A stretch of 64,000 nucleotides of DNA from Gemmatimonadota bacterium (GTDB lineage: Bacteria > Gemmatimonadota > Gemmatimonadetes > Gemmatimonadales > Gemmatimonadaceae), in contig JANOTB010000133.1 in assembly GCA_031416115.1 (NCBI GenBank), forward strand, positions 3,205-67,204. Direction: 5' to 3'. This document shows positions 28,770-36,842 of this stretch, piece by piece. Every line of letters begins with the position of its first letter. Position 1 is the first letter of the stretch. Both the position numbers and the translations under genes were made by a program. Under the pieces are notes generated by a model, which was given only the letters and a program-made list of their open reading frames with translations, ran no database searches and was not told the DNA's origin.

Positions 28770-31214
28770 GTGTCCCTCGATCTCCGCTACGTCCTCCGCA
28801 GTCTCTCGCGCGCGCCCGGCTTCGCCCTCGCGGTCATCCTGACCCTTGGACTCGGCATCGGCGCCAACACCGCGATCTTCAGCGCCGTGCGCGGCGTGCT
28901 GCTCCGCCCCCTCCCGCACGCCGAGGGCGAGCGACTCATGTACCTACGCCAGTCGGTCACGGCGCAGGGGGCCACGAACATCGCGTTCTCCGTCCCTGAG
29001 ATCAACGACTTCCGCGAGGCATCGCGCACGCTCGGCGAGATCGCCGAGTACTCGCCGATCACACTCTCGCTCGTCGAAGACCAGGACGCTTCACAGATCG
29101 ACGTGGGCCTCGTCACCGGCAACTACCTCTCGGTGATGGGGCTCGCCCCGGTGCTCGGCCGCCCATTCAGCCCCGCGGACGACGGCGCCGGCGCCGCGCC
29201 GGTCATCATGCTCGGGCACGCATACTGGCTCGCGCACTTCTCGGGTGACAGCGCAGTAGTCGGTCGCACCATGCGGATCGGCAACCGGCCGGTCGCGGTG
29301 ATCGGCGTGCTGCAGCCGGCGCCGTTCTTCCCCGGCCGGATCGACGCGCTCATGAACATGTCGATCAGCGAGCACCATGTGAGCGCGATGATGGTGCAGG
29401 GTCGCTCGCACCGCATGACCGAGATGATCGCGCGCCTTGCGCCCGGCACCACGGTGGAGCAGGCGCGCGCCGAAGTGGGCACGATAACCGACCGCGTGCA
29501 CACGCAGTTCCCCGAGACCTACGACGCGGCCTCCGGTTACGGCGTGACGCTCACGCCGTTCCAAGAAGTGCTGGGCGCCGACGCGCGCCTCACACTCTGG
29601 CTCCTGATGGGTGTCGCGGCCTTCGTCCTCGTGATCGCCTGTGCGAACGTCGCCAACCTCACGCTCATGCGCGGCGTGCGACGTGAGCACGAGATGATCG
29701 TGCGCGCCGCACTCGGCGCCGGCACAACGCGCCTGAGGCGCCTGCTGCTCGCCGAGAATCTGGTGCTCTCGTTCGCCGGCGCTGCCCTCGGGCTCGTGGT
29801 CGCGTATGCGGGCGTGGGAACGCTCTCGACGTTCATCGGCCGCTACAGTCCGCGCGCCAGTGAGATCCAGGTGGACGGCGTGGTGCTCTCATTCACGTTG
29901 CTGCTGGCGCTCGGCGTCGCGGTGTTGCTCTCGTACGCGCCACGCGTGGGCGCCGAGCGTACGCTCGGCGCGGGCCTCGCGGCGGGCGGCACACGGTCCA
30001 CCGGTGGAGTACGCCGCCGTCGCCTGCAGCAGGTGCTCGTGGTGGCGCAGGTGGCGGTCTCGGTGATCCTCCTCAGCGGTACCGGGTTGCTCGTGCGCTC
30101 CATGCAGCAGTTGGCCGCAGTCGATCCCGGTCTCGACACGCGGAATGTGCTCACCATGGAAGTGCCTGCCGACTTCACCGCACTCACGGACCTGTCGCGT
30201 GCGGCGAGCCGCTACGAACAGATGCAGCGGGAACTCTCGACGCTCCCGGGCGTGCAGGTCGTGGGACTAGGCTCGACCATTCCGCTGCGTGCGGCGGGCT
30301 TTCTGCTCGAGATCAAGGCCGAGGGCCGCACGCTCGGTCAGGGTGAGGCGGTCCCGATGGCCGAATATCGCACGGCCGACCCTGGCTACTTCCGCGCCGC
30401 GGGGATCCCACTGCTGAGTGGGCGCGAGTTCAGCTCCACCGACCTGCGCACTGCCGGTCGCGTCGTGATCCTCAACAAGACACTCGCGGACCGCCTCTTC
30501 CAGGGCGTGGACCCCGTAGGCCGACAGGTCGCGTGGACCGGTGACGTACTCAAGTTCATCGGAATTTCAGGGGACTGGCGCACCGTGGTCGGCGTGGTGG
30601 GAGACACCAAGGACGGCGGGCTCGACGCCAAGCCGCTGCCGGTGACCTTCACGCCGTTCGCTCAGGGCGACTTCCCCTCGGGCGGGCTCGTGATCCGCAG
30701 CGACGTGGATCTCGCCGGTCTCTCGACTGCGGCGCGCGCGATCGTGCGGTCGATCGCGCCCGAGCAGCCGATCGAGAATGTGATGTCGCTCGACGCGATC
30801 CGCGACGAGAGCGTGGGTCCGCGGCGGATCAACGCGCTGCTGGTCGGTGCGTTCGGCCTGCTCGCGCTGGTGATCGCTGCGATCGGGATCGCGGCGGTGC
30901 TGGCCTTCTCGGTCAGTGCGCGCACCAACGAGATCGGCATCCGCATGAGCCTCGGTGCCGACCCGCGCAGCGTGCAGGCGATGATCCTGCGTGAGGGCGG
31001 ACTGCTCGTCGGTCTCGGGTTGCTCACGGGCGTGGTGGGTTCGTTGCTGCTGGCGCGCAGCATCGAGGGCTTGCTCTATGGCGTCGCACCGCGCGACCCG
31101 GCCACGCTCGTTGCCGTGGCGCTGGTGATGGGCGCGATCGGCATGGCTGCCTGTTGGGTGCCCGCGGCGCGCGCGAGCCGGATCGATCCGTCGGAGTCGC
31201 TCAGGGCGTCGTGA
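28770..31214 (+). CDS. ADOP-family duplicated ABC-type permease (MacB/FtsX-like, two FtsX modules)
   Basis: N-terminal LRYVLRSLSRAPGFALAVILTLGLGIGANTAIFS signature. 814 aa with two 4-TM FtsX-type modules. No adjacent ATPase gene. Confidence 0.85.
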   Translation: MSLDLRYVLRSLSRAPGFALAVILTLGLGIGANTAIFSAVRGVLLRPLPHAEGERLMYLRQSVTAQGATNIAFSVPEINDFREASRTLGEIAEYSPITLSLVEDQDASQIDVGLVTGNYLSVMGLAPVLGRPFSPADDGAGAAPVIMLGHAYWLAHFSGDSAVVGRTMRIGNRPVAVIGVLQPAPFFPGRIDALMNMSISEHHVSAMMVQGRSHRMTEMIARLAPGTTVEQARAEVGTITDRVHTQFPETYDAASGYGVTLTPFQEVLGADARLTLWLLMGVAAFVLVIACANVANLTLMRGVRREHEMIVRAALGAGTTRLRRLLLAENLVLSFAGAALGLVVAYAGVGTLSTFIGRYSPRASEIQVDGVVLSFTLLLALGVAVLLSYAPRVGAERTLGAGLAAGGTRSTGGVRRRRLQQVLVVAQVAVSVILLSGTGLLVRSMQQLAAVDPGLDTRNVLTMEVPADFTALTDLSRAASRYEQMQRELSTLPGVQVVGLGSTIPLRAAGFLLEIKAEGRTLGQGEAVPMAEYRTADPGYFRAAGIPLLSGREFSSTDLRTAGRVVILNKTLADRLFQGVDPVGRQVAWTGDVLKFIGISGDWRTVVGVVGDTKDGGLDAKPLPVTFTPFAQGDFPSGGLVIRSDVDLAGLSTAARAIVRSIAPEQPIENVMSLDAIRDESVGPRRINALLVGAFGLLALVIAAIGIAAVLAFSVSARTNEIGIRMSLGADPRSVQAMILREGGLLVGLGLLTGVVGSLLLARSIEGLLYGVAPRDPATLVAVALVMGAIGMAACWVPAARASRIDPSESLRAS

Positions 31215-32091
31215 AGGACTGAGCGTCCAGACCCGCCACCAACGCACGCGCCGCGCAGTTCGGGCAGCGCGTATCGACCACCGGCAACTCCGTTCGCTGC
31301 GCAACGAACGCTTCGAGCGTCTTCCACGCGCCGTCGGGGCCACGCACACTTCGGCAATGCGCGCACATCGGTACCACGCCGCGCACTGCGTATTCGAGTG
31401 CCCGCGCCACTCGCAGCTCGGCGGCCTCGCGGTCGTCCAGGAGCCGCTGGTGCACGCCAATGCCGATGCCGAGCGCAACCGAGAGGTGTACGGCGCTCGC
31501 GAGGCCCAGACCGAACGCATTCCAGAACGCCGCGGTCGCAGGCCAGGCGGATCCCGCGACGACGAGCGCATGCGCGAGAAGGCCAGCCGCTGCGAGAACG
31601 CGCGCTCGGCTGTCGAGGCGCGGAGAGCTGCCGACCACGATCGCGCCGATGGCCCAGAGCGCGCCGTGCTGGAGGAGGAGGTAGGCATTCGCTCGATCCG
31701 CGAGCCCCTGAGCCGCCGACAGGCCCAGGTACGCGAGCGACAACGGGAGCAGCATCACGAGCCAAGCCGGCGGTGCCCAGCGCGCGCCCAAGTGAAAGAG
31801 CGTGAGCGTGAAGGCCGCGTCGCGGAGGAAGAACAGTGGGGTGCCGAGCGAGTTGCCGAGTACCCCGCTGCCGATCGGCCACGCTTCGGTCGGCACGAGT
31901 CCGAGCACGTAGCGAACGGCCCAGAGCAGCCAGGTCACGATGAGCCACCCCAACCAGGCTTCGCGGTCGGCGCGCCAGACCCAGGCGAATACCGCGACCG
32001 CGGCGAGCGTCGCGACGAGCGCATTCACCACTGGGGTCAGCGACGCAGGTGCGCTCGCCTGGAGCTGCGCGAACTCGAGTCCCATTCGCAT
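31201..32091 (-). CDS. 7-TM membrane protein with C-terminal CxxC-x29-CxxC zinc-ribbon-like tail (paralog B)
   Basis: ATG 32091 shares one base with the upstream stop (TGATG). There are about seven hydrophobic helices, then MCAHCRSVRGPDGAWKTLEAF...RCPNCA (Cys codons within 31255-31365). Confidence 0.7.
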   Translation of the reverse strand: MRMGLEFAQLQASAPASLTPVVNALVATLAAVAVFAWVWRADREAWLGWLIVTWLLWAVRYVLGLVPTEAWPIGSGVLGNSLGTPLFFLRDAAFTLTLFHLGARWAPPAWLVMLLPLSLAYLGLSAAQGLADRANAYLLLQHGALWAIGAIVVGSSPRLDSRARVLAAAGLLAHALVVAGSAWPATAAFWNAFGLGLASAVHLSVALGIGIGVHQRLLDDREAAELRVARALEYAVRGVVPMCAHCRSVRGPDGAWKTLEAFVAQRTELPVVDTRCPNCAARALVAGLDAQSFTTP

Positions 32092-32945
32092 CACGCGGAC
32101 GCCGCCGCGTCGGCACTGTCGATGCCGAACTCGCGTTTCGCACACGGGGGGCAGATGCCGTGCGTCACCGATGCGTTCGTCGCACTGTAGATGAACTCCT
32201 CCGGTGCGCGCCAGGATCTGTCGGCCGCTTCCACGCGGTCGCAATCCGCGCAGACGTTCGCGTGACCGCGGAGCGCGTGCTGCATGGTGCCCTCGAGCTT
32301 CTTGAGGGCGGCGAGCCGGAGCGCGCTCGCCTCGTCGAGCTCAGCGAACGCGATGCCCAGCACCAAAGCGAGCGCGCCCAGTTGGATCAGGATCGCAATG
32401 GCCTCACTGGCGCCCCCAGTGACGGCGGGACTCACCAGCAGCACGCCGGCGAGGATCAAGAGCCCTGCGACGCTCATCCGTCGCGACCCACGCCCTGCGC
32501 GTCCCGCACGCGCGAGCACCGCCGCAACGATGAGCAGCGCGACGACCGAGGAGCTGACCCTCACGCTGAGCGCCAGCCCACCGAACGTCGGGTGTCGCAG
32601 GCTCCCGGAGAGAATGAGCAGGGCCTCGACGGCCGCAGGGAGCAGCAACCAACGCCACCAGCGATGACCCATGTAGAGCGACGCCCCGGCGACGAAGAAC
32701 AGATCTCGAGCCGTGCCGACCACGCTCAACGGCGCCCGCGCGTCGAACGGAACGCCCCAGAGCATCGGCGCGTACCGCAACGCGAATGCGGACCACGCGA
32801 GTCCCCAGAGGAGCAGGTAGGTTTCGCGCCGCATGCGCCAGAGTAGAAGGTGCATGACGGCGGCGACCAGCAAGCTCAGCATCCCGGCGATGATAGCCTG
32901 GAGAGGCACGCCGGAGATCAGACCGGGCAAGAAAGTCTGGTTCAC
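32091..32945 (-). CDS. 7-TM membrane protein with C-terminal CxxC-x29-CxxC zinc-ribbon-like tail (paralog A)
   Basis: Seven predicted helices, a helical linker, then VCADCDRVEAADRSWRAPEEF...GICPPCA (Cys codons within 32142-32252). Confidence 0.7.
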   Translation of the reverse strand: MNQTFLPGLISGVPLQAIIAGMLSLLVAAVMHLLLWRMRRETYLLLWGLAWSAFALRYAPMLWGVPFDARAPLSVVGTARDLFFVAGASLYMGHRWWRWLLLPAAVEALLILSGSLRHPTFGGLALSVRVSSSVVALLIVAAVLARAGRAGRGSRRMSVAGLLILAGVLLVSPAVTGGASEAIAILIQLGALALVLGIAFAELDEASALRLAALKKLEGTMQHALRGHANVCADCDRVEAADRSWRAPEEFIYSATNASVTHGICPPCAKREFGIDSADAAASA

Positions 32946-32976: not shown

Positions 32977-33417
32977 CTACGGAACGTACTGCATCACGAG
33001 GAAGTGAACACCCTGCGCTGACCGAATGCCGCAGAAGCGCCCGATGCCGGCCGCCTCCCTCACCGCAATGTACACCGTGGCACCGAGCCGCAATGCGTCG
33101 CGCGCGGCGGCGTCGGAATCGCTCACCGTGAAGTACGTCACCCAACAGGGCGGGACGCCCTCCATCTCGTCGGTGAGTTCCATCATCCCGGCCACGGGGC
33201 GGTCCCCGAGCTTGAAGATCGTGTACGGCACAGACTGTCCCGGCATCGACTCCGCGGTCCAGCCGAACAACGCATCGTAGAATGCCTGCGCCGTCGCCAT
33301 GACCGTGGTCAGCAGCTCGAACCAGCTTGGAGCGCCAACACGACTCACGTCAGCGGGATGCGGCGTGATGATGTGGAGCCAGCAGAACTCGCCGGGGGCG
33401 CGTGGGCGGGGTGTCAT
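32977..33417 (-). CDS. VOC (glyoxalase/bleomycin-resistance fold) family protein
   Basis: WFELLTTVMATAQAFYDALFGW and PPCWVTYFTVSD motifs. An alternative GTG start at 33348 would give ~124 aa. Confidence 0.7.
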   Translation of the reverse strand: MTPRPRAPGEFCWLHIITPHPADVSRVGAPSWFELLTTVMATAQAFYDALFGWTAESMPGQSVPYTIFKLGDRPVAGMMELTDEMEGVPPCWVTYFTVSDSDAAARDALRLGATVYIAVREAAGIGRFCGIRSAQGVHFLVMQYVP

Positions 33418-33545
33418 CCGTCAGTACGGTTGCTATGGCGAGGGCTTTCGGTCCCAGTGGCAGCCGCCATATTCCTGAGTATGCGCACTACGGCGTCGGG
33501 CGGCTCGCTCGCCTGGCGTCGCCCCCTGCCCTGCGAGTCGCGCTC

Positions 33546-34439
33546 ATGGCAAGTATCGCGTACCTCGGCACCGGCCTCCTCGGCGCCGCCTTCGTGGAGG
33601 CCGCATGCAAGCGTGGCGATTCCGTCACGGTCTGGAATCGCACCACGGCCAAGGCCCGCGCGCTGCAGCTGTTCGGCGCGCACGTCGCTGGCTCACCGGA
33701 GATGGCCGTGCGCGGCGCCGAGCGTGTGCACCTGGTGTTGCAGGACGACGCGTCGGTGGAAGAGGTCGTACGGGCGTTGCGCCCCGGCCTCGCGCCCGGG
33801 GCGATCATCGTGGACCACACGACGACGCTCCCCATGCTCACGGCCGCGCGTGCGACGCGGCTCAACGCCGAGGGAGTCCACTACCTGCACTGCCCGGTGT
33901 TCATCGGACCCGCAGCGGCGCGCGAGGCGCAGGGGATCATCATGGCCTGTGGCCCGCGAGCACTTTTCGAGCAGGTGAAGCCCGCACTGGAGCTACAGGC
34001 GCTGCGCGTTGAGTACCTGGGAGAGCGCAACGACCTCGCGGCGGTGATGAAGCTCTGCGGCAATGCGTACATCATCGGCAGTGGCGGGCTGCTCGCGGAC
34101 GTCTTCTCGATCGCCGCGAACTCCGCGGTGAAGCCGGGTGAAGCGCTCTCGCTGCTCAACTTCTTCTTCGGCGCGGGGATCATCGCCGGGCGCGGCACGA
34201 AGATGGCGGCGGGTGACTACACCGCGAGCTTCGAGCTCACCATGGCACGCAAGGACGTGCGACTGATGATCGAGACCGCGGGAGCGTTGCCGCTGGCGCT
34301 GTTGCCCGGGCTGGCGGCGCGCATGGATGCGCTGATCGCCGAGGGGAACGGAGCGCTCGACATGGGCGTGATGGCGCGGGATGCGGTCGCGCGGGATGCG
34401 GTCGCGCGGGACCCGCACGGCGGGACCCGCGCCGAGTAG
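33546..34439 (+). CDS. NAD(P)-dependent beta-hydroxyacid dehydrogenase-like oxidoreductase
   Basis: ATG 33546 places the Rossmann motif IAYLGTGLLGAAF at the N-terminus. MKLCGNAYI and ARKDVRL motifs of the HIBADH/6PGDH-NAD family are present. Confidence 0.75.
   Translation: MASIAYLGTGLLGAAFVEAACKRGDSVTVWNRTTAKARALQLFGAHVAGSPEMAVRGAERVHLVLQDDASVEEVVRALRPGLAPGAIIVDHTTTLPMLTAARATRLNAEGVHYLHCPVFIGPAAAREAQGIIMACGPRALFEQVKPALELQALRVEYLGERNDLAAVMKLCGNAYIIGSGGLLADVFSIAANSAVKPGEALSLLNFFFGAGIIAGRGTKMAAGDYTASFELTMARKDVRLMIETAGALPLALLPGLAARMDALIAEGNGALDMGVMARDAVARDAVARDPHGGTRAE
34374..34411 (+). repeat. in-frame 15-nt tandem repeat gcgcgggatgcggtc x2.5 (ARDAV ARDAV ARD)
   Basis: Read directly from the sequence, at the 3' end of the oxidoreductase gene. 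Confidence 0.9.
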
Positions 34440-34526: not shown

Positions 34527-36842
34527 CTGCCTCACCAGCTCGACAAACTGCGTTCGGCCCTCGGCGCCTCCTACCGGCTCGAAGATCTTGTCGGCTCCGG
34601 AGGCATGGCGTCGGTCTATCGCGCGATCGACCTCCGTCATGATCGCGTGGTGGCGATCAAGGTGCTGCGCCCCGAACTCGCGAGCAGCGTCAGCCTTGAG
34701 CGATTCAACGCCGAGGTGCGACTCACGGCGAGCCTGCAGCACCCGCACATCCTCCCGCTGCATGACTCGGGAGGCGCGGGTGATCTGCTCTTCTACGTCA
34801 TGCCGTTCGTCGAAGGCGCTCGGACGTTGCGTGGGCGCATCGAGGCGAGTGGTCCCATGCCGATCGATGAAGCGATCGAGGTGGCCGTCGTCGTCGGCCG
34901 CGCGCTCGACTACGCGCACAAGCGCGGCGTGATCCATCGCGACATCAAGCCGGAGAACATCCTGATGTCGAACGGTGTGCCGATCGTCGCCGACTTCGGC
35001 ATCGCACGGATCGCCACTGCGGACGGCACCCGCGTGACGGGTACCGGGATATCGGTCGGCACGCCCTCGTACATGAGTCCGGAGCAGGCGGAAGGCGACC
35101 CAGGGGTGGACGCGCGCACGGACATCTACGCGCTGGGCGCGATGCTCTTCGAGATGATCGCCGGTGAAGCGCCGTTCGGGAGTGGCACCTCGGTGGGGAT
35201 ACTCAAACGACTCTTCACCGAACCCGCACCGCCGCTCGCCTCGCGACGGAGCGACGTACCGCCCAGCGTGGCGGCCGCCGTCGCGCGGGCGCTCGAGAAG
35301 CAGAAGTCGTTGCGCTTTGCGACGGCCGCGGAGTTCGTGCTCGCCTTGCGCGTCGGTCTTCGCACCGACGCCCCCGAGACAACCGGAACGCCGGGTAGCA
35401 CGAGCGGGCGTGTTGGCGCTACGGCCGCCGTCGCAGACGAGCGGTCGGTCGCGGTGCTGCCGCTGGTGAACGTGGGCAACGATCCCGAGCACGACTACTT
35501 CTGCGACGGGATGACCGACGAGTTGATCACCACGCTCTCGCGCCTGCGCGGCGTGCGCGTGGCATCGCGAACGTCGGTCTTCTCGTTCAAGGGACGCGGC
35601 GCCACGGTCGAGGACATCGGCCGCGCGCTCAACGTCGCCTATGTGCTCGAAGGCAGCGTGCGCCACGCCGGCGCGCGGGTCCGTATCAGTGCGCAGCTGA
35701 TCGAGATCCGCACCCAACACCAACGCTGGGCCGAGCGGTTCGACCGCAACCTCGACGACGTGTTCGCGCTGCAGGACGAGCTCGCCCTCACGATCGCCGA
35801 CGCCTTGTCGGTGCGCCTCTCGACCGCCGGCGGCGACGAGATCACCGGCGTGCGGCGCGGCACCGAGAACCTTCCCGCCTACGAGCTGGTGCTCAAGGGG
35901 CGGTACTTCTGGAATCAGCGAGCGCTCGACAAGGCGATGGGGTGCTTCCAGGAGGCGGTGCGTCTCGACTCCGAATTCGCACAGGCGTGGGCCGGACTCT
36001 CGGACGGCTTCTCGTTCCTCAGTTACTACGGCGCGCTCCCACCGCAGGTGGCTTTCGATCGCGGGCGGGCGGCCGCCGAACGCGCGGTCGCTGCCGACGC
36101 GCAGCTGCCGGAGGCGCAGTACGCGCGGGGACTGTTCGAGTTGCTCCTCGGACACGACATGGAGCTGTCTGGCCGCGCGCTGCGACACGCGATAGAACTG
36201 GGGCCGCGTCATGGTGGCTCACACGCGACGCTCTGCCAGTGGCTCGCGTTCACCGGCGACGTCAGCACCTCACACCGCGAGGCGGAAACGGCCCTGCACC
36301 TCGAGCCGCTGTCACCACTGGTCGCGGCAACGGTGGGCTGGGCCGCCGTGCTGAGCCGCGAGCCGGATCGCGCCGAGCGCTTCGTGCGACGGGGACTGGA
36401 ACTCGATGCGAACGCGCTGCCCTGCCTCTGGACGCTCGGCGGTGCGCACTTGGAGCGCGGCAACGTCGCCGAGGCGCTCGACTGGTTCGGCCGGGCCGTC
36501 GCGAGGTCCGGACGCTTGCCGTACATGGTCGCGCTGCACGCGCACGCGGCGGCGGTGGCGGGAGACGACGCGACCGCGCGCGCCGCGCTGCTCGAGATCA
36601 CCACGCGCGCTGACGGGCCGCGACCGGGGCTTGCGGCGTGGATCCATCTCGGACTCGGAGAGCTCGAGCAAGCGATCCCCCTGCTCTCTCAGGCGCTTGC
36701 GGAACACGACCCACACGCGCTGACGCCGCTCGCCATGCTGCATGCCGGCCGCGCAGCGGTCGCCGACGCGCGCTACGCCGACGCGCTCACGCGTGCGGGG
36801 CTCGGCGAGCTCTACCGCGCGCGCACAGCGCTGACCTCGTAG
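34527..36842 (+). CDS. Ser/Thr protein kinase with periplasmic-type TolB-like module and TPR tail
   Basis: HRDIKPENIL, DFGIA and GTPSYMSPEQ motifs. The ORF track starts at ATG 34605, inside the glycine loop (GSGGMASVY). The conserved N-terminus LDKLRSALGASYRLEDLVGSGG is encoded upstream. The only upstream start-like codons are CTG 34527 and 34548. Confidence 0.8.
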   Translation: MPHQLDKLRSALGASYRLEDLVGSGGMASVYRAIDLRHDRVVAIKVLRPELASSVSLERFNAEVRLTASLQHPHILPLHDSGGAGDLLFYVMPFVEGARTLRGRIEASGPMPIDEAIEVAVVVGRALDYAHKRGVIHRDIKPENILMSNGVPIVADFGIARIATADGTRVTGTGISVGTPSYMSPEQAEGDPGVDARTDIYALGAMLFEMIAGEAPFGSGTSVGILKRLFTEPAPPLASRRSDVPPSVAAAVARALEKQKSLRFATAAEFVLALRVGLRTDAPETTGTPGSTSGRVGATAAVADERSVAVLPLVNVGNDPEHDYFCDGMTDELITTLSRLRGVRVASRTSVFSFKGRGATVEDIGRALNVAYVLEGSVRHAGARVRISAQLIEIRTQHQRWAERFDRNLDDVFALQDELALTIADALSVRLSTAGGDEITGVRRGTENLPAYELVLKGRYFWNQRALDKAMGCFQEAVRLDSEFAQAWAGLSDGFSFLSYYGALPPQVAFDRGRAAAERAVAADAQLPEAQYARGLFELLLGHDMELSGRALRHAIELGPRHGGSHATLCQWLAFTGDVSTSHREAETALHLEPLSPLVAATVGWAAVLSREPDRAERFVRRGLELDANALPCLWTLGGAHLERGNVAEALDWFGRAVARSGRLPYMVALHAHAAAVAGDDATARAALLEITTRADGPRPGLAAWIHLGLGELEQAIPLLSQALAEHDPHALTPLAMLHAGRAAVADARYADALTRAGLGELYRARTALTS

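What the first reader, a model, noticed from the sequence alone, without database searches (positions are those of the whole stretch)
31201..32945. Translationally coupled pair of 7-TM proteins ending in an identical-spacing CxxC-x29-CxxC module
Both paralogs have about seven TM helices, a helical linker and a tail:
- paralog A: VCADCDRVEAADRSWRAPEEF...THGICPPCA
- paralog B: MCAHCRSVRGPDGAWKTLEAF...DTRCPNCA

The cysteine spacing is identical in both, and a conserved Trp lies nine residues after the second Cys.

From memory, the same C-terminal signature (xCxxCxxxR...W...E.F......CPxC) terminates many PAS or other sensor proteins in Deltaproteobacteria-like genomes, in the place of a conventional output domain. 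I am not aware of a functional characterisation. Here it is fused to a 7-TM receptor-like module, and the genes are joined by a TGATG overlap at 32091. This could be an uncharacterised one-component membrane signalling device, either a Zn-ribbon output or a redox/metal sensor.
Basis: partly seen in the sequence, partly recalled or inferred. Interest (0 to 1): 0.65.

Follow-up and report, generated by a model that had tools for sequence, protein, structure and literature searches.

The report
Paired 7-TM sensors with Cys4 tails
Two overlapping genes of a sediment Gemmatimonadota bacterium encode sister seven-helix membrane proteins, each ending in a small four-cysteine module that closes off tens of thousands of bacterial sensor proteins, has no curated family or known function, and here looks built to work as a mixed pair.

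Summary
A is 32091-32945(-), 284 aa. B is 31201-32091(-), 296 aa. They are real genes under purifying selection. B's ATG overlaps A's TGA, and the same overlap is seen in six independent assemblies. Both proteins have seven TM helices, N-out/C-in by the positive-inside rule. In A, the model shows TM7 running straight into a cytoplasmic helix.

Each protein ends in CxxC-x29-CxxC with a Trp at +13. This tail is a divergent but significant member of a very large family: 21,203 clusters at 50% identity. I found no Pfam or NCBIfam model for it, no PDB relative, and no paper.

In that family the tail sits about 14 residues from the C-terminus, behind PAS, GAF, REC, MASE, Cache or HAMP modules. No known output domain appeared among the families reported, so the tail occupies the output position.

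A and B have lost complementary conserved sub-motifs. Elsewhere, proteins that carry two tails usually keep the His-Gly-Ile face in only one of them.

Best reading: a 1:1 heteromeric membrane sensor whose paired Zn(Cys)4 tails signal by binding an unknown cytoplasmic partner. Metal binding, heteromer formation and the target are all inferred, not shown.

The parts
32091..32945 (-). Gene A: 284-aa protein with 7 TM helices, a linker helix and a Cys4 tail (GTG start; stop TGA at 32093..32091)
   Evidence: ORF. Orthologues at 71-92% identity. dN/dS 0.23-0.30. AlphaFold2 gives 7 TM helices, pLDDT 67.8.
32340..32903 (-). A, seven-TM bundle (about residues 15-202). Short N-terminus and short loops, no extracytoplasmic domain. 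Conserved W36-R37-x-x-R40-E41 at the cytoplasmic end of TM1, and R57-Y58 (TM2) and R80-D81 (TM3) in the outer half.
   Evidence: Hydropathy and Lys/Arg positions. Helices 15-37, 42-62, 74-92, 94-112, 121-146, 152-174, 179-228. Conserved columns.
32262..32339 (-). A, cytoplasmic linker helix continuous with TM7 (about residues 203-228). Same length and same best heptad registers as in B.
   Evidence: Single helix 179-228 in the model. Helix 2-27 in the tail model at pLDDT 87.8. Register check.
32142..32252 (-). A, Cys4 tail core CADC-x29-CPPC (C232, C235, C265, C268; W245). Keeps T-H-G-I-C-P but has lost all six conserved residues of the first-knuckle face.
   Evidence: Motif scan. 48.4 bits against the canonical-tail HMM. 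Per-position comparison.
32089..32093 (-). TGATG stop/start overlap joining A and B (translational coupling)
   Evidence: Sequence. Equivalent TGATG or ATGA overlaps in L001, L002/L003, L004, L005 and L010.
31201..32091 (-). Gene B: 296-aa paralogue with the same architecture (ATG at 32091..32089)
   Evidence: ORF. Orthologues P0038 and P0159-P0165. dN/dS 0.23-0.38.
31453..32037 (-). B, seven-TM bundle (about residues 19-213) carrying the same motifs: W38-R40-x-x-R43-E44, R60-Y61, R90-D91.
   Evidence: Hydropathy. Alignment with A through the bridge P0120.
31375..31452 (-). B, cytoplasmic linker (about residues 214-239). The distance from the TM7 'LGI' motif to the first Cys is identical to that in A.
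31255..31365 (-). B, Cys4 tail core CAHC-x29-CPNC (C243, C246, C276, C279; W256). Keeps P-2, R+7 and G+11, but has D-T-R in place of H-G-I.
   Evidence: Motif scan. 56.9 bits against the canonical-tail HMM. Per-position comparison.

Best explanation
A and B are two sister membrane sensor subunits made in 1:1 ratio from overlapping genes.

Architecture. Each is a seven-helix bundle with its N-terminus outside and its C-terminus inside, and no extracellular domain. In the model of A, the seventh helix continues into the cytoplasm as a rigid linker. B's linker has the same length and heptad register but was not modelled. Each ends in a roughly 45-residue module whose four invariant cysteines most likely hold one zinc ion. 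This module is a divergent member of a very large family that has no curated model. In that family it is the last domain of bacterial sensor proteins and takes the place of a kinase, cyclase or DNA-binding output.

Proposed mechanism:
1. A signal is sensed in the membrane or at its outer face, probably at the conserved Arg-Tyr and Arg-Asp residues in the outer half of TM2 and TM3.
2. The change travels down the two parallel linker helices of an A:B heterodimer.
3. It alters how the two zinc modules sit against each other.
4. That controls binding of a cytoplasmic partner, which is still unknown.

Shown: the genes and their coupling, the topology bias, homology of both tails to the family, the family's domain partners and position, the complementary loss of conserved residues in A and B, and the recurrent asymmetry of two-tail proteins.

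Inferred: zinc binding, heterodimer formation, the sensing site, and output by partner binding.
For: Coupling and pairing. The stop/start overlap is found in the window and in five further independent pairs, including relatives whose A-type proteins are only 56% and 42% identical to A. A and B evolve at similar rates, dN/dS 0.23-0.38.

Topology. Positive-inside counts are 10:2 for A and 6:2 for B (my count). The model of A has seven TM helices, with TM7 continuous to residue 228. The linkers are of identical length and register in A and B.

Tail family.
- 21,203 clusters at E<=1e-3.
- The x29 spacing holds in 190 of 192 tails, and the tail ends a median of 14 aa from the C-terminus.
- A non-circular HMM scores A at 48.4 bits and B at 56.9 bits, against at most 14.3 bits for Cys-fixed shuffles.
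- The tail model has pLDDT 87.8: three short strands and two helices, the last starting at the second CxxC.

Output position. Partners in 147 representatives are PAS 38, MASE6 21, REC 12 and GAF 6, plus Cache, HAMP, MASE1/3, PocR, HisKA_7TM and SBP. No known output domain is among the 25 most frequent of the 49 families found. About 50 of 80 metagenome loci appear to encode the same small response regulator, REC + coiled coil + tail; one was read in full.

Heteromer.
- A keeps 0 of 6 first-knuckle residues and 4 of 4 of the H-G-I-x-P face. B keeps 3 of 6 and 1 of 4. Single-tail proteins average 5.6 of 6 and 3.9 of 4. This pattern is fixed in all orthologues.
- 42-44 of the 149 best-scoring representatives fuse two sensor+tail modules in one chain.
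- In 32 of 42 of these, exactly one tail keeps His+30, which is kept in 99% of single tails. This is seen in at least 8 unrelated sensor families.
- L064 has four tail genes in a row, two with degenerate tails.
Against: - No experiment or metal analysis exists, and I could not inspect the model coordinates to check the Cys geometry.
- Heteromer formation was not modelled, because no multimer tool was available.
- The list of two-tail proteins is biased: summed scores push them to the top, and 25 of 42 belong to one MASE6x2 family.
- Fused proteins keep the first-knuckle face in both tails. A simple model in which one reciprocal interface decays is therefore not supported, and A's complete loss of that face is unexplained.
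- Neighbourhoods of other tail genes show no shared partner gene, so the target is unknown.
- The full-length model is of only moderate confidence (pLDDT 67.8).
Confidence: 0.55

Rival explanations
1. These are two independent sensors. A and B each form homodimers, sense different signals, and are merely co-transcribed after a tandem duplication. The differences between their tails reflect different targets, not complementation.
For: The TM domains are very divergent: BLASTP finds no similarity before the last TM helix, and phmmer on the TM parts gives E 0.045. Both tails keep all four Cys, W+13 and E+17. Stop/start overlap is common in ordinary operons (general knowledge).
Against: The pair is kept together, with the overlap, in every A-type locus found, down to 42% identity. 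Each tail has lost residues that are 82-97% conserved in the family, and the losses are complementary. Asymmetry between two tails recurs in fused proteins.
Confidence: 0.22
2. The Cys4 module is itself a sensor or switch, not an output. It would be a rubredoxin-like Fe(Cys)4 centre or a zinc-thiolate redox switch that reports oxidants or metal supply. The 7-TM part would then be the effector or an anchor.
For: There are four invariant cytoplasmic cysteines in two knuckles. From memory, the x29 spacing equals that between the two knuckles of clostridial rubredoxin. Zinc-thiolate switches such as RsrA and Hsp33 are known (general knowledge).
Against: The module is always the last domain, one per sensor module. 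It sits behind inputs as different as REC, PAS, GAF, Cache and HAMP, which is the behaviour of an output. No rubredoxin family is hit even at E<=10. The residues after the knuckles are K and A, not the Gly of rubredoxin. The model has helices between the knuckles.
Confidence: 0.13
3. The tail is a nucleic-acid-binding zinc ribbon, which would make A/B a membrane-tethered transcription or RNA regulator of the ToxR/CadC type.
For: Many Cys4 ribbons bind DNA or RNA (general knowledge). Canonical tails carry K+4, K+5 and R+7 next to an aromatic residue and W+13. In the loci read, the REC-tail response regulators are the only regulator in their kinase/Hpt clusters.
Against: A's tail replaces K+4 and R+7 with Asp and Glu and is net acidic. 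Canonical tails are roughly neutral (D+8, D+9, E+17). No DNA-binding family is hit, and there is no fold match to nucleic-acid-binding ribbons.
Confidence: 0.07
4. This is not a signalling device. The 7-TM parts would be a transporter or membrane enzyme, with the Cys4 tail serving only as a structural or assembly element.
For: The 7-TM domain has no significant family assignment. Conserved charged residues inside the bundle could also serve transport.
Against: Every identifiable partner of the tail family is a signal-input domain. The 7-TM fold resembles receptor and rhodopsin bundles only generically. The continuous TM7-linker helix is typical of signal transmission.
Confidence: 0.03

Closest known systems
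The unnamed C-terminal Cys4 tail of bacterial PAS/GAF/REC/MASE/Cache sensor proteins. Consensus: L-x-G-L-L-P-I-C-A-x-C-K-K-I-R-D-D-x-G-x-W-x-x-V-E-x-Y-I-x-x-H-T-x-A-x-F-S-H-G-I-C-P-x-C.
   Same: Four Cys with x2/x29/x2 spacing, W+13, E+17, G-5, a preceding helical linker and an extreme C-terminal position. HMM scores are 48-57 bits.
   Different: A has lost P-2, K+4, R+7, D+8, D+9 and G+11. B has lost H+30, G+31 and I+32. The sensor module is a 7-TM bundle found only in this small Gemmatimonadota-type family. The genes come as a coupled pair. The family itself has no curated model or known function.
7TMR-DISM receptors (Pfam PF07695, 7TMR-DISM_7TM)
   Same: A bacterial 7-TM bundle, N-out/C-in, followed by a cytoplasmic signalling module. 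There is a weak match spanning positions 11-201 of the 205-position profile in A, and a sub-threshold match in 7 of the 18 sequences scanned.
   Different: The score is 10 bits (best E 0.038) against a cut-off of 29 bits. B was not among the matches when scanned alone. There is no extracellular DISMED domain. The output is not a kinase, cyclase or phosphatase.
Obligate heterodimeric 7-TM receptors (class C GPCRs such as GABA-B) and the sensory rhodopsin II/HtrII pair
   Same: Working analogy only: two related 7-TM subunits with divided labour. Foldseek lists such bundles at TM-score 0.38-0.47.
   Different: No match is significant (best E 0.015). Neither A nor B has a Lys in TM7, so no retinal Schiff base is possible (sequence). 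There is no G-protein machinery.
Rubredoxin and zinc-ribbon/treble-clef knuckle domains
   Same: Two CxxC knuckles, the second being CPxC at the start of a helix. From memory, the spacing of 29 equals that of clostridial rubredoxin.
   Different: No Pfam zinc-ribbon or rubredoxin family reaches threshold; only the knuckles match, at E 0.03-0.4. There is no PDB match by sequence or by fold (best E 2.2). A helix lies between the knuckles.

Membership tests
Cys4 sensor-tail family (unnamed; defined here from 184 canonical tails) | Four cysteines as CxxC-x29-CxxC | tested here: met
   A has C232, C235, C265, C268. B has C243, C246, C276, C279. Spacing is x29 in 190 of 192 family tails.
Cys4 sensor-tail family (unnamed; defined here from 184 canonical tails) | Significant score against a profile that contains no A or B type sequence | tested here: met
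   A scores 48.4 bits (E 4e-8 at Z = 1.84e9). B scores 56.9 bits (E 1e-10). Cys-fixed shuffles reach at most 7.5 and 14.3 bits.
Cys4 sensor-tail family (unnamed; defined here from 184 canonical tails) | Invariant Trp at +13 and Glu at +17; Gly at -5 | tested here: met
   Present in both A and B.
Cys4 sensor-tail family (unnamed; defined here from 184 canonical tails) | First-knuckle face P-2, K+4, R+7, D+8, D+9, G+11 (71-97% conserved) | tested here: not met
   A keeps 0 of 6 and B keeps 3 of 6. Single-tail proteins average 5.6 of 6. A and B are therefore derived members.
Cys4 sensor-tail family (unnamed; defined here from 184 canonical tails) | H+30-G+31-I+32 and P+34 face (His kept in 99% of single-tail proteins) | tested here: inconclusive
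   A keeps 4 of 4 and B keeps 1 of 4. The feature is met only by A, as in most two-tail proteins.
Cys4 sensor-tail family (unnamed; defined here from 184 canonical tails) | Extreme C-terminal position after a helical linker, on the cytoplasmic side | tested here: met
   The last Cys lies 16 (A) and 17 (B) residues from the C-terminus. The family median, measured the same way, is 14. Linker helix. Positive-inside topology.
Cys4 sensor-tail family (unnamed; defined here from 184 canonical tails) | Binds one metal ion through the four Cys | not testable with these tools
   Needs ICP-MS or a PAR assay on purified protein.
7TMR-DISM_7TM (PF07695) | Score at or above the Pfam gathering threshold (29 bits) | tested here: not met
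   A scores 10 bits, E 0.8. The best among the 18 scanned sequences is E 0.038, in 7 of 18 members. B was not among the matches when scanned alone.
7TMR-DISM_7TM (PF07695) | Seven TM helices followed by a cytoplasmic signalling module | tested here: met
7TMR-DISM_7TM (PF07695) | N-terminal extracellular DISMED1/2 domain (usual, not obligatory) | tested here: not met
   Only about 14-18 residues precede TM1.
Rubredoxin (PF00301) | Pfam match; CxxCG and CPxCG knuckles | tested here: not met
   No hit at E<=10. The residues after the knuckles are D or R and A, not Gly.
Microbial rhodopsins | Lys in TM7 for the retinal Schiff base; significant fold or sequence match | tested here: not met
   TM7 has no Lys in A or B (sequence). 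Foldseek gives E>=0.06 and TM-score<=0.47.

The most novel reading that the evidence does not exclude
The Cys4 tail would be a previously undescribed, very widespread class of signal-output module. It would act as an asymmetric pair, needing only one His-Gly-Ile face per pair, on a common cytoplasmic target. On this reading the A/B genes encode an obligate heterodimeric bacterial 7-TM receptor. The two subunits would stay as separate genes because an N-out/C-in seven-helix subunit cannot be fused head-to-tail without inverting the second one.
Probability: 0.3. Interest if true: 0.85.

Novelty: new variant of a known kind. Interest (0 to 1): 0.62.

Why it matters
Bacterial signalling is usually described through a short list of outputs: kinases, cyclases and phosphodiesterases, chemotaxis adaptors, and DNA-binding domains. 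Here a 45-residue module sits in the output position of more than 20,000 protein clusters, behind almost every common sensor domain. It also forms an abundant family of small response regulators in soil. Yet I found no curated model, no solved structure and no published function.

Finding its target would assign a function to a large body of 'PAS domain S-box' and mis-named 'histidine kinase' annotations.

The A/B pair is a useful entry point, for two reasons. The conserved faces of the tail are split between two proteins, which gives natural separation-of-function variants. It may also be a bacterial example of an obligate heteromeric 7-TM receptor.

Tried and rejected
- 7TMR-DISM membership: only sub-threshold, 10 bits against 29.
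- Rhodopsin or GPCR relationship: Foldseek similarity is generic and not significant, and TM7 has no Lys.
- Rubredoxin or any named zinc ribbon: no family reaches threshold, and only the knuckles match.
- PDB relatives of the tail: none by sequence with two profiles and none by fold. The glutamate dehydrogenase hairpin resemblance (E 0.2-0.4) is treated as chance.
- Reciprocal-interface model (A's lost first-knuckle face pairs with B's lost H-G-I face): fused two-tail proteins keep the first-knuckle face in both tails, so the model is not supported as a general rule.
- Conserved partner genes next to other tail genes: none shared.
- The same 7-TM module with other outputs: the word-indexed search returned only A and B orthologues, and the genome collection gave a single Gemmatimonadota MAG. 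That search has limited sensitivity.
- Promoter, terminator, Rfam and tRNA scans: nothing found.
- Literature: eight searches, two of them on motif strings, found no description of the tail. One paper recalled from memory could not be retrieved.
- Upstream VOC gene as an operon partner: it is absent in L004 and decaying in the window and in L001, so it is not part of the unit.

Full report
OBSERVATION.

On the minus strand, ORF A (32091..32945, 284 aa, GTG start) is followed by ORF B (31201..32091, 296 aa). The junction reads gcgTGATGcga. A's TGA (32093..32091) shares its last base with B's ATG (32091..32089).

A carries Cys at 232, 235, 265 and 268. B carries Cys at 243, 246, 276 and 279. In both, exactly 29 residues separate the two CxxC pairs, and a Trp is the tenth residue after the second Cys.

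A six-frame scan of the whole window finds no other intact motif of this kind.

The window has 66-72% G+C and long spurious ORFs on the other strand, so I checked coding status. Against three orthologous loci, dN/dS is 0.23-0.30 for A and 0.23-0.38 for B.

THE PAIR IS A CONSERVED UNIT.

- A has orthologues at 71-92% identity.
- Their contigs (L001 ENA, L002/L003 NCBI/Logan, L004 JGI) all carry a B orthologue directly downstream, with a TGATG or ATGA overlap.
- A 56%-identical A-type gene (L010) and a 42%-identical one (P0120 in L005) are also followed by a B-type gene that overlaps the stop.
- The only genome-collection hit is a Gemmatimonadota MAG.
- The reads that hold the locus come from freshwater and other sediment metagenomes.
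- Flanking genes vary. A convergent MacB_PCD/FtsX permease is present in three loci. An upstream VOC-fold gene is absent in L004 and truncated in the window and in L001. The unit is therefore A plus B.

ANATOMY.

Hydropathy gives seven hydrophobic segments in each protein. AlphaFold2 on an 18-sequence alignment (pLDDT 67.8) gives seven TM helices for A. The seventh (179-228) continues without a break into the cytoplasm.

I counted Lys+Arg from the sequences and the helix limits. The loops after TM1, TM3 and TM5 hold 10 in A, against 2 in the other loops and the N-terminus. For B the counts are 6 against 2. This gives N-out/C-in and places the tail in the cytoplasm.

There is no extracytoplasmic domain: about 14-18 residues precede TM1, and the outer loops are short.

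BLASTP aligns A and B only from the last TM helix onward (33% identity, E 8e-11). However, P0120 matches both TM domains (4e-25 and 3.5e-6 in a 158-sequence set). The alignment shows shared motifs: W-R-x-x-R-E-x-(Y/W)-L at the inner end of TM1, R-Y in TM2 and R-D in TM3. The two are therefore paralogues over their full length. By the model's helix limits, R-Y and R-D lie in the outer half of the bundle. I take them as the likeliest sensing site; this is an inference.

The distance from the TM7 'LGI' motif to the first Cys is identical in A and B, and the best heptad registers coincide.

THE TAIL IS A HUGE FAMILY WITH NO CURATED MODEL.

A profile of the A tail, the B tail and one metagenomic homologue was searched against 1.84 billion representatives. 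It found 21,203 proteins at E<=1e-3 and 7,867 at E<=1e-10.

In the best 149:
- the spacing is x29 in 190 of 192 tails;
- the tail ends a median of 14 residues from the C-terminus;
- the four Cys and the Trp are invariant.

The consensus is L-x-G-L-L-P-I-C-A-x-C-K-K-I-R-D-D-x-G-x-W-x-x-V-E-x-Y-I-x-x-H-T-x-A-x-F-S-H-G-I-C-P-x-C.

That profile contained A and B, so I repeated the test without them. An HMM of 184 canonical tails scores A at 48.4 bits and B at 56.9 bits. Shuffles that keep the cysteines in place reach at most 7.5 and 14.3 bits.

Pfam scans of 147 representatives show the partners: PAS (38), MASE6 (21), REC (12) and GAF (6), plus dCache_1, HAMP, MASE1, MASE3, PocR, HisKA_7TM and SBP_bac_3. 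No kinase, cyclase, phosphodiesterase or HTH is among the 25 most frequent of the 49 families found, and no family covers the tail. NCBIfam has nothing for it either. Isolated tails hit only the knuckles of assorted zinc-ribbon families, below threshold.

Source annotations are generic or wrong, for example 'PAS domain S-box' and 'CckA'.

A metagenome scan returned 80 tail-bearing loci. About 50 appear, from gene length and near-identical tails, to encode the same 207-214-aa protein. The one read in full is a response regulator: REC + coiled coil + tail. The tail therefore also follows a phospho-receiver.

Taken together, this is the behaviour of an output domain.

STRUCTURE AND KNOWN RELATIVES.

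The linker+tail of A, modelled with 37 aligned sequences, gives pLDDT 87.8. It consists of a long helix, three two-residue strands around the first knuckle, a helix after the Trp, and a final helix starting at the second CxxC.

Foldseek against the PDB finds nothing (best E 2.2). Two sequence profiles find no solved relative. The full-length model resembles GPCR and rhodopsin bundles only generically (best E 0.015, TM-score <=0.47). TM7 has no Lys.

7TMR-DISM_7TM matches 7 of the 18 scanned sequences below threshold (best E 0.038; 10 bits against 29 for A).

Eight literature searches, including motif strings, found no description of the tail. Most subscription journals were not searchable.

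EVIDENCE THAT THE TWO TAILS WORK TOGETHER.

I compared A and B with 185 family tails, position by position.
- A has Asn for P-2 (97% conserved in the family), Asp for K+4 (88%), Glu for R+7 (92%) and Arg for G+11 (92%). It keeps T-H-G-I-C-P.
- B keeps P-2, R+7 and G+11. It has Asp-Thr-Arg in place of H+30 (82%), G+31 (81%) and I+32 (68%).

Scored as two faces:

| | First-knuckle face (of 6) | H-G-I-x-P face (of 4) |
|---|---|---|
| A | 0 | 4 |
| B | 3 | 1 |
| Single-tail proteins (mean) | 5.6 | 3.9 |

No single tail scores below 2 of 6 on the first face. The pattern is fixed in all orthologues and in the 42-56% relatives.

Independently, 42-44 of the 149 best hits are single chains holding two sensor+tail modules. 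His+30 is kept in 99% of single tails. In 32 of 42 two-tail proteins it is kept in exactly one tail. This occurs in at least 8 of the 13 sensor-module families among them. One contig, L064, carries four tail genes in a row, two with degenerate tails.

There are three caveats.
- Two-tail proteins rank high because their scores add up.
- 25 of the 42 belong to one MASE6x2 family.
- In the fused proteins the first-knuckle face is kept in both tails. My first idea, that one of two reciprocal interfaces had decayed, is therefore not supported as a general rule. A's complete loss of that face remains unexplained.

A topological point, by inference: an N-out/C-in seven-helix subunit cannot be fused in tandem without inverting the second copy. 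This may be why this pair stays as two coupled genes, while sensor modules whose two ends lie on the same side of the membrane can fuse.

MECHANISM PROPOSED.

A and B are made 1:1 through translational coupling and form a heteromer.
1. A signal is sensed in the membrane or at its outer face.
2. The signal shifts the two parallel TM7-linker helices.
3. This changes the mutual arrangement of the two Zn(Cys)4 modules.
4. That controls binding of an unknown cytoplasmic partner.

Confidence is 0.55 overall and about 0.5 for the heteromer step.

Rivals:
- two independent homodimeric sensors (0.22);
- the Cys4 site as a redox or metal sensor rather than an output (0.13);
- a nucleic-acid-binding ribbon, making a membrane-tethered regulator (0.07);
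- not a signalling device (0.03).

COMPARISON AND NOVELTY.

A and B are derived members of the Cys4 tail family. This was tested and met on spacing, Trp/Glu and profile score. It was not met on the first-knuckle face.

They are not demonstrable members of 7TMR-DISM, rubredoxin or rhodopsin families.

The general logic, a membrane sensor with a C-terminal cytoplasmic module, is a known kind. The new elements are the 7-TM module, the coupled and complementary pair, and the fact that the output family itself has no assigned function. I rate this 'new variant of a known kind', with interest 0.62. The more novel reading is a new class of paired signal output and an obligate heteromeric bacterial 7-TM receptor. 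I give that a probability of about 0.3.

Noticed in passing
window 32977-33417 (-): The VOC/glyoxalase-fold ORF 31 nt upstream of A has lost, in frame, the first of the two half-domains present in its 255-aa orthologue in L002. The L001 copy is shorter still, and L004 lacks the gene. It looks like a gene in decay.
   Followed up: partly
window 31201-31214: The 3' end of B overlaps the 3' end of the convergent MacB_PCD/FtsX permease gene (28770-31214, +) by 14 nt. The same overlap is seen in L001 but not in L002.
   Followed up: no
L064:457-3391 (FKKE01000378.1): Four consecutive genes each end in a Cys4 tail. The first and second tails are degenerate (H-G-I replaced; the second has also lost P-2, R+7, D+8 and D+9). 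The third is canonical.
   Followed up: partly
L012, L016, L042, L057, L060, L062 and about 45 similar loci: An abundant soil-metagenome response regulator of about 207-214 aa (REC + coiled coil + Cys4 tail). In the loci read it sits next to a divergent histidine kinase, an ORF of 117-123 aa that looks Hpt-like, a secreted ORF that looks CMD/AhpD-like, and a PQQ-propeller-like dehydrogenase. These neighbour assignments are by eye from the translations, with no family scan. No DNA-binding regulator was seen in the cluster.
   Followed up: partly
tail family, positions +6 to +24: The motif I-R-D-D-x-G-x-W-x-x-(V/I)-E-x-Y-x-x-x-H-(S/T) resembles a stretch near the N-terminus of glutamate dehydrogenases (IRRDDGSWEVIEGYRAQHS) at E 0.2-0.4. 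This is below significance and probably chance.
   Followed up: no
P0065 (389 aa): A protein built of about seven tandem repeats, each holding only the first half of the tail (CVSCRRVQDxTWRTL) with no second CxxC. Its origin and meaning are unknown.
   Followed up: no
window 34605-36842 (+): A Ser/Thr protein kinase with C-terminal TPR repeats lies near the pair. It is also its near neighbour in L001, while a NAD_binding_2 dehydrogenase (33402-34439) is the direct neighbour in L004. No functional link was tested.
   Followed up: no
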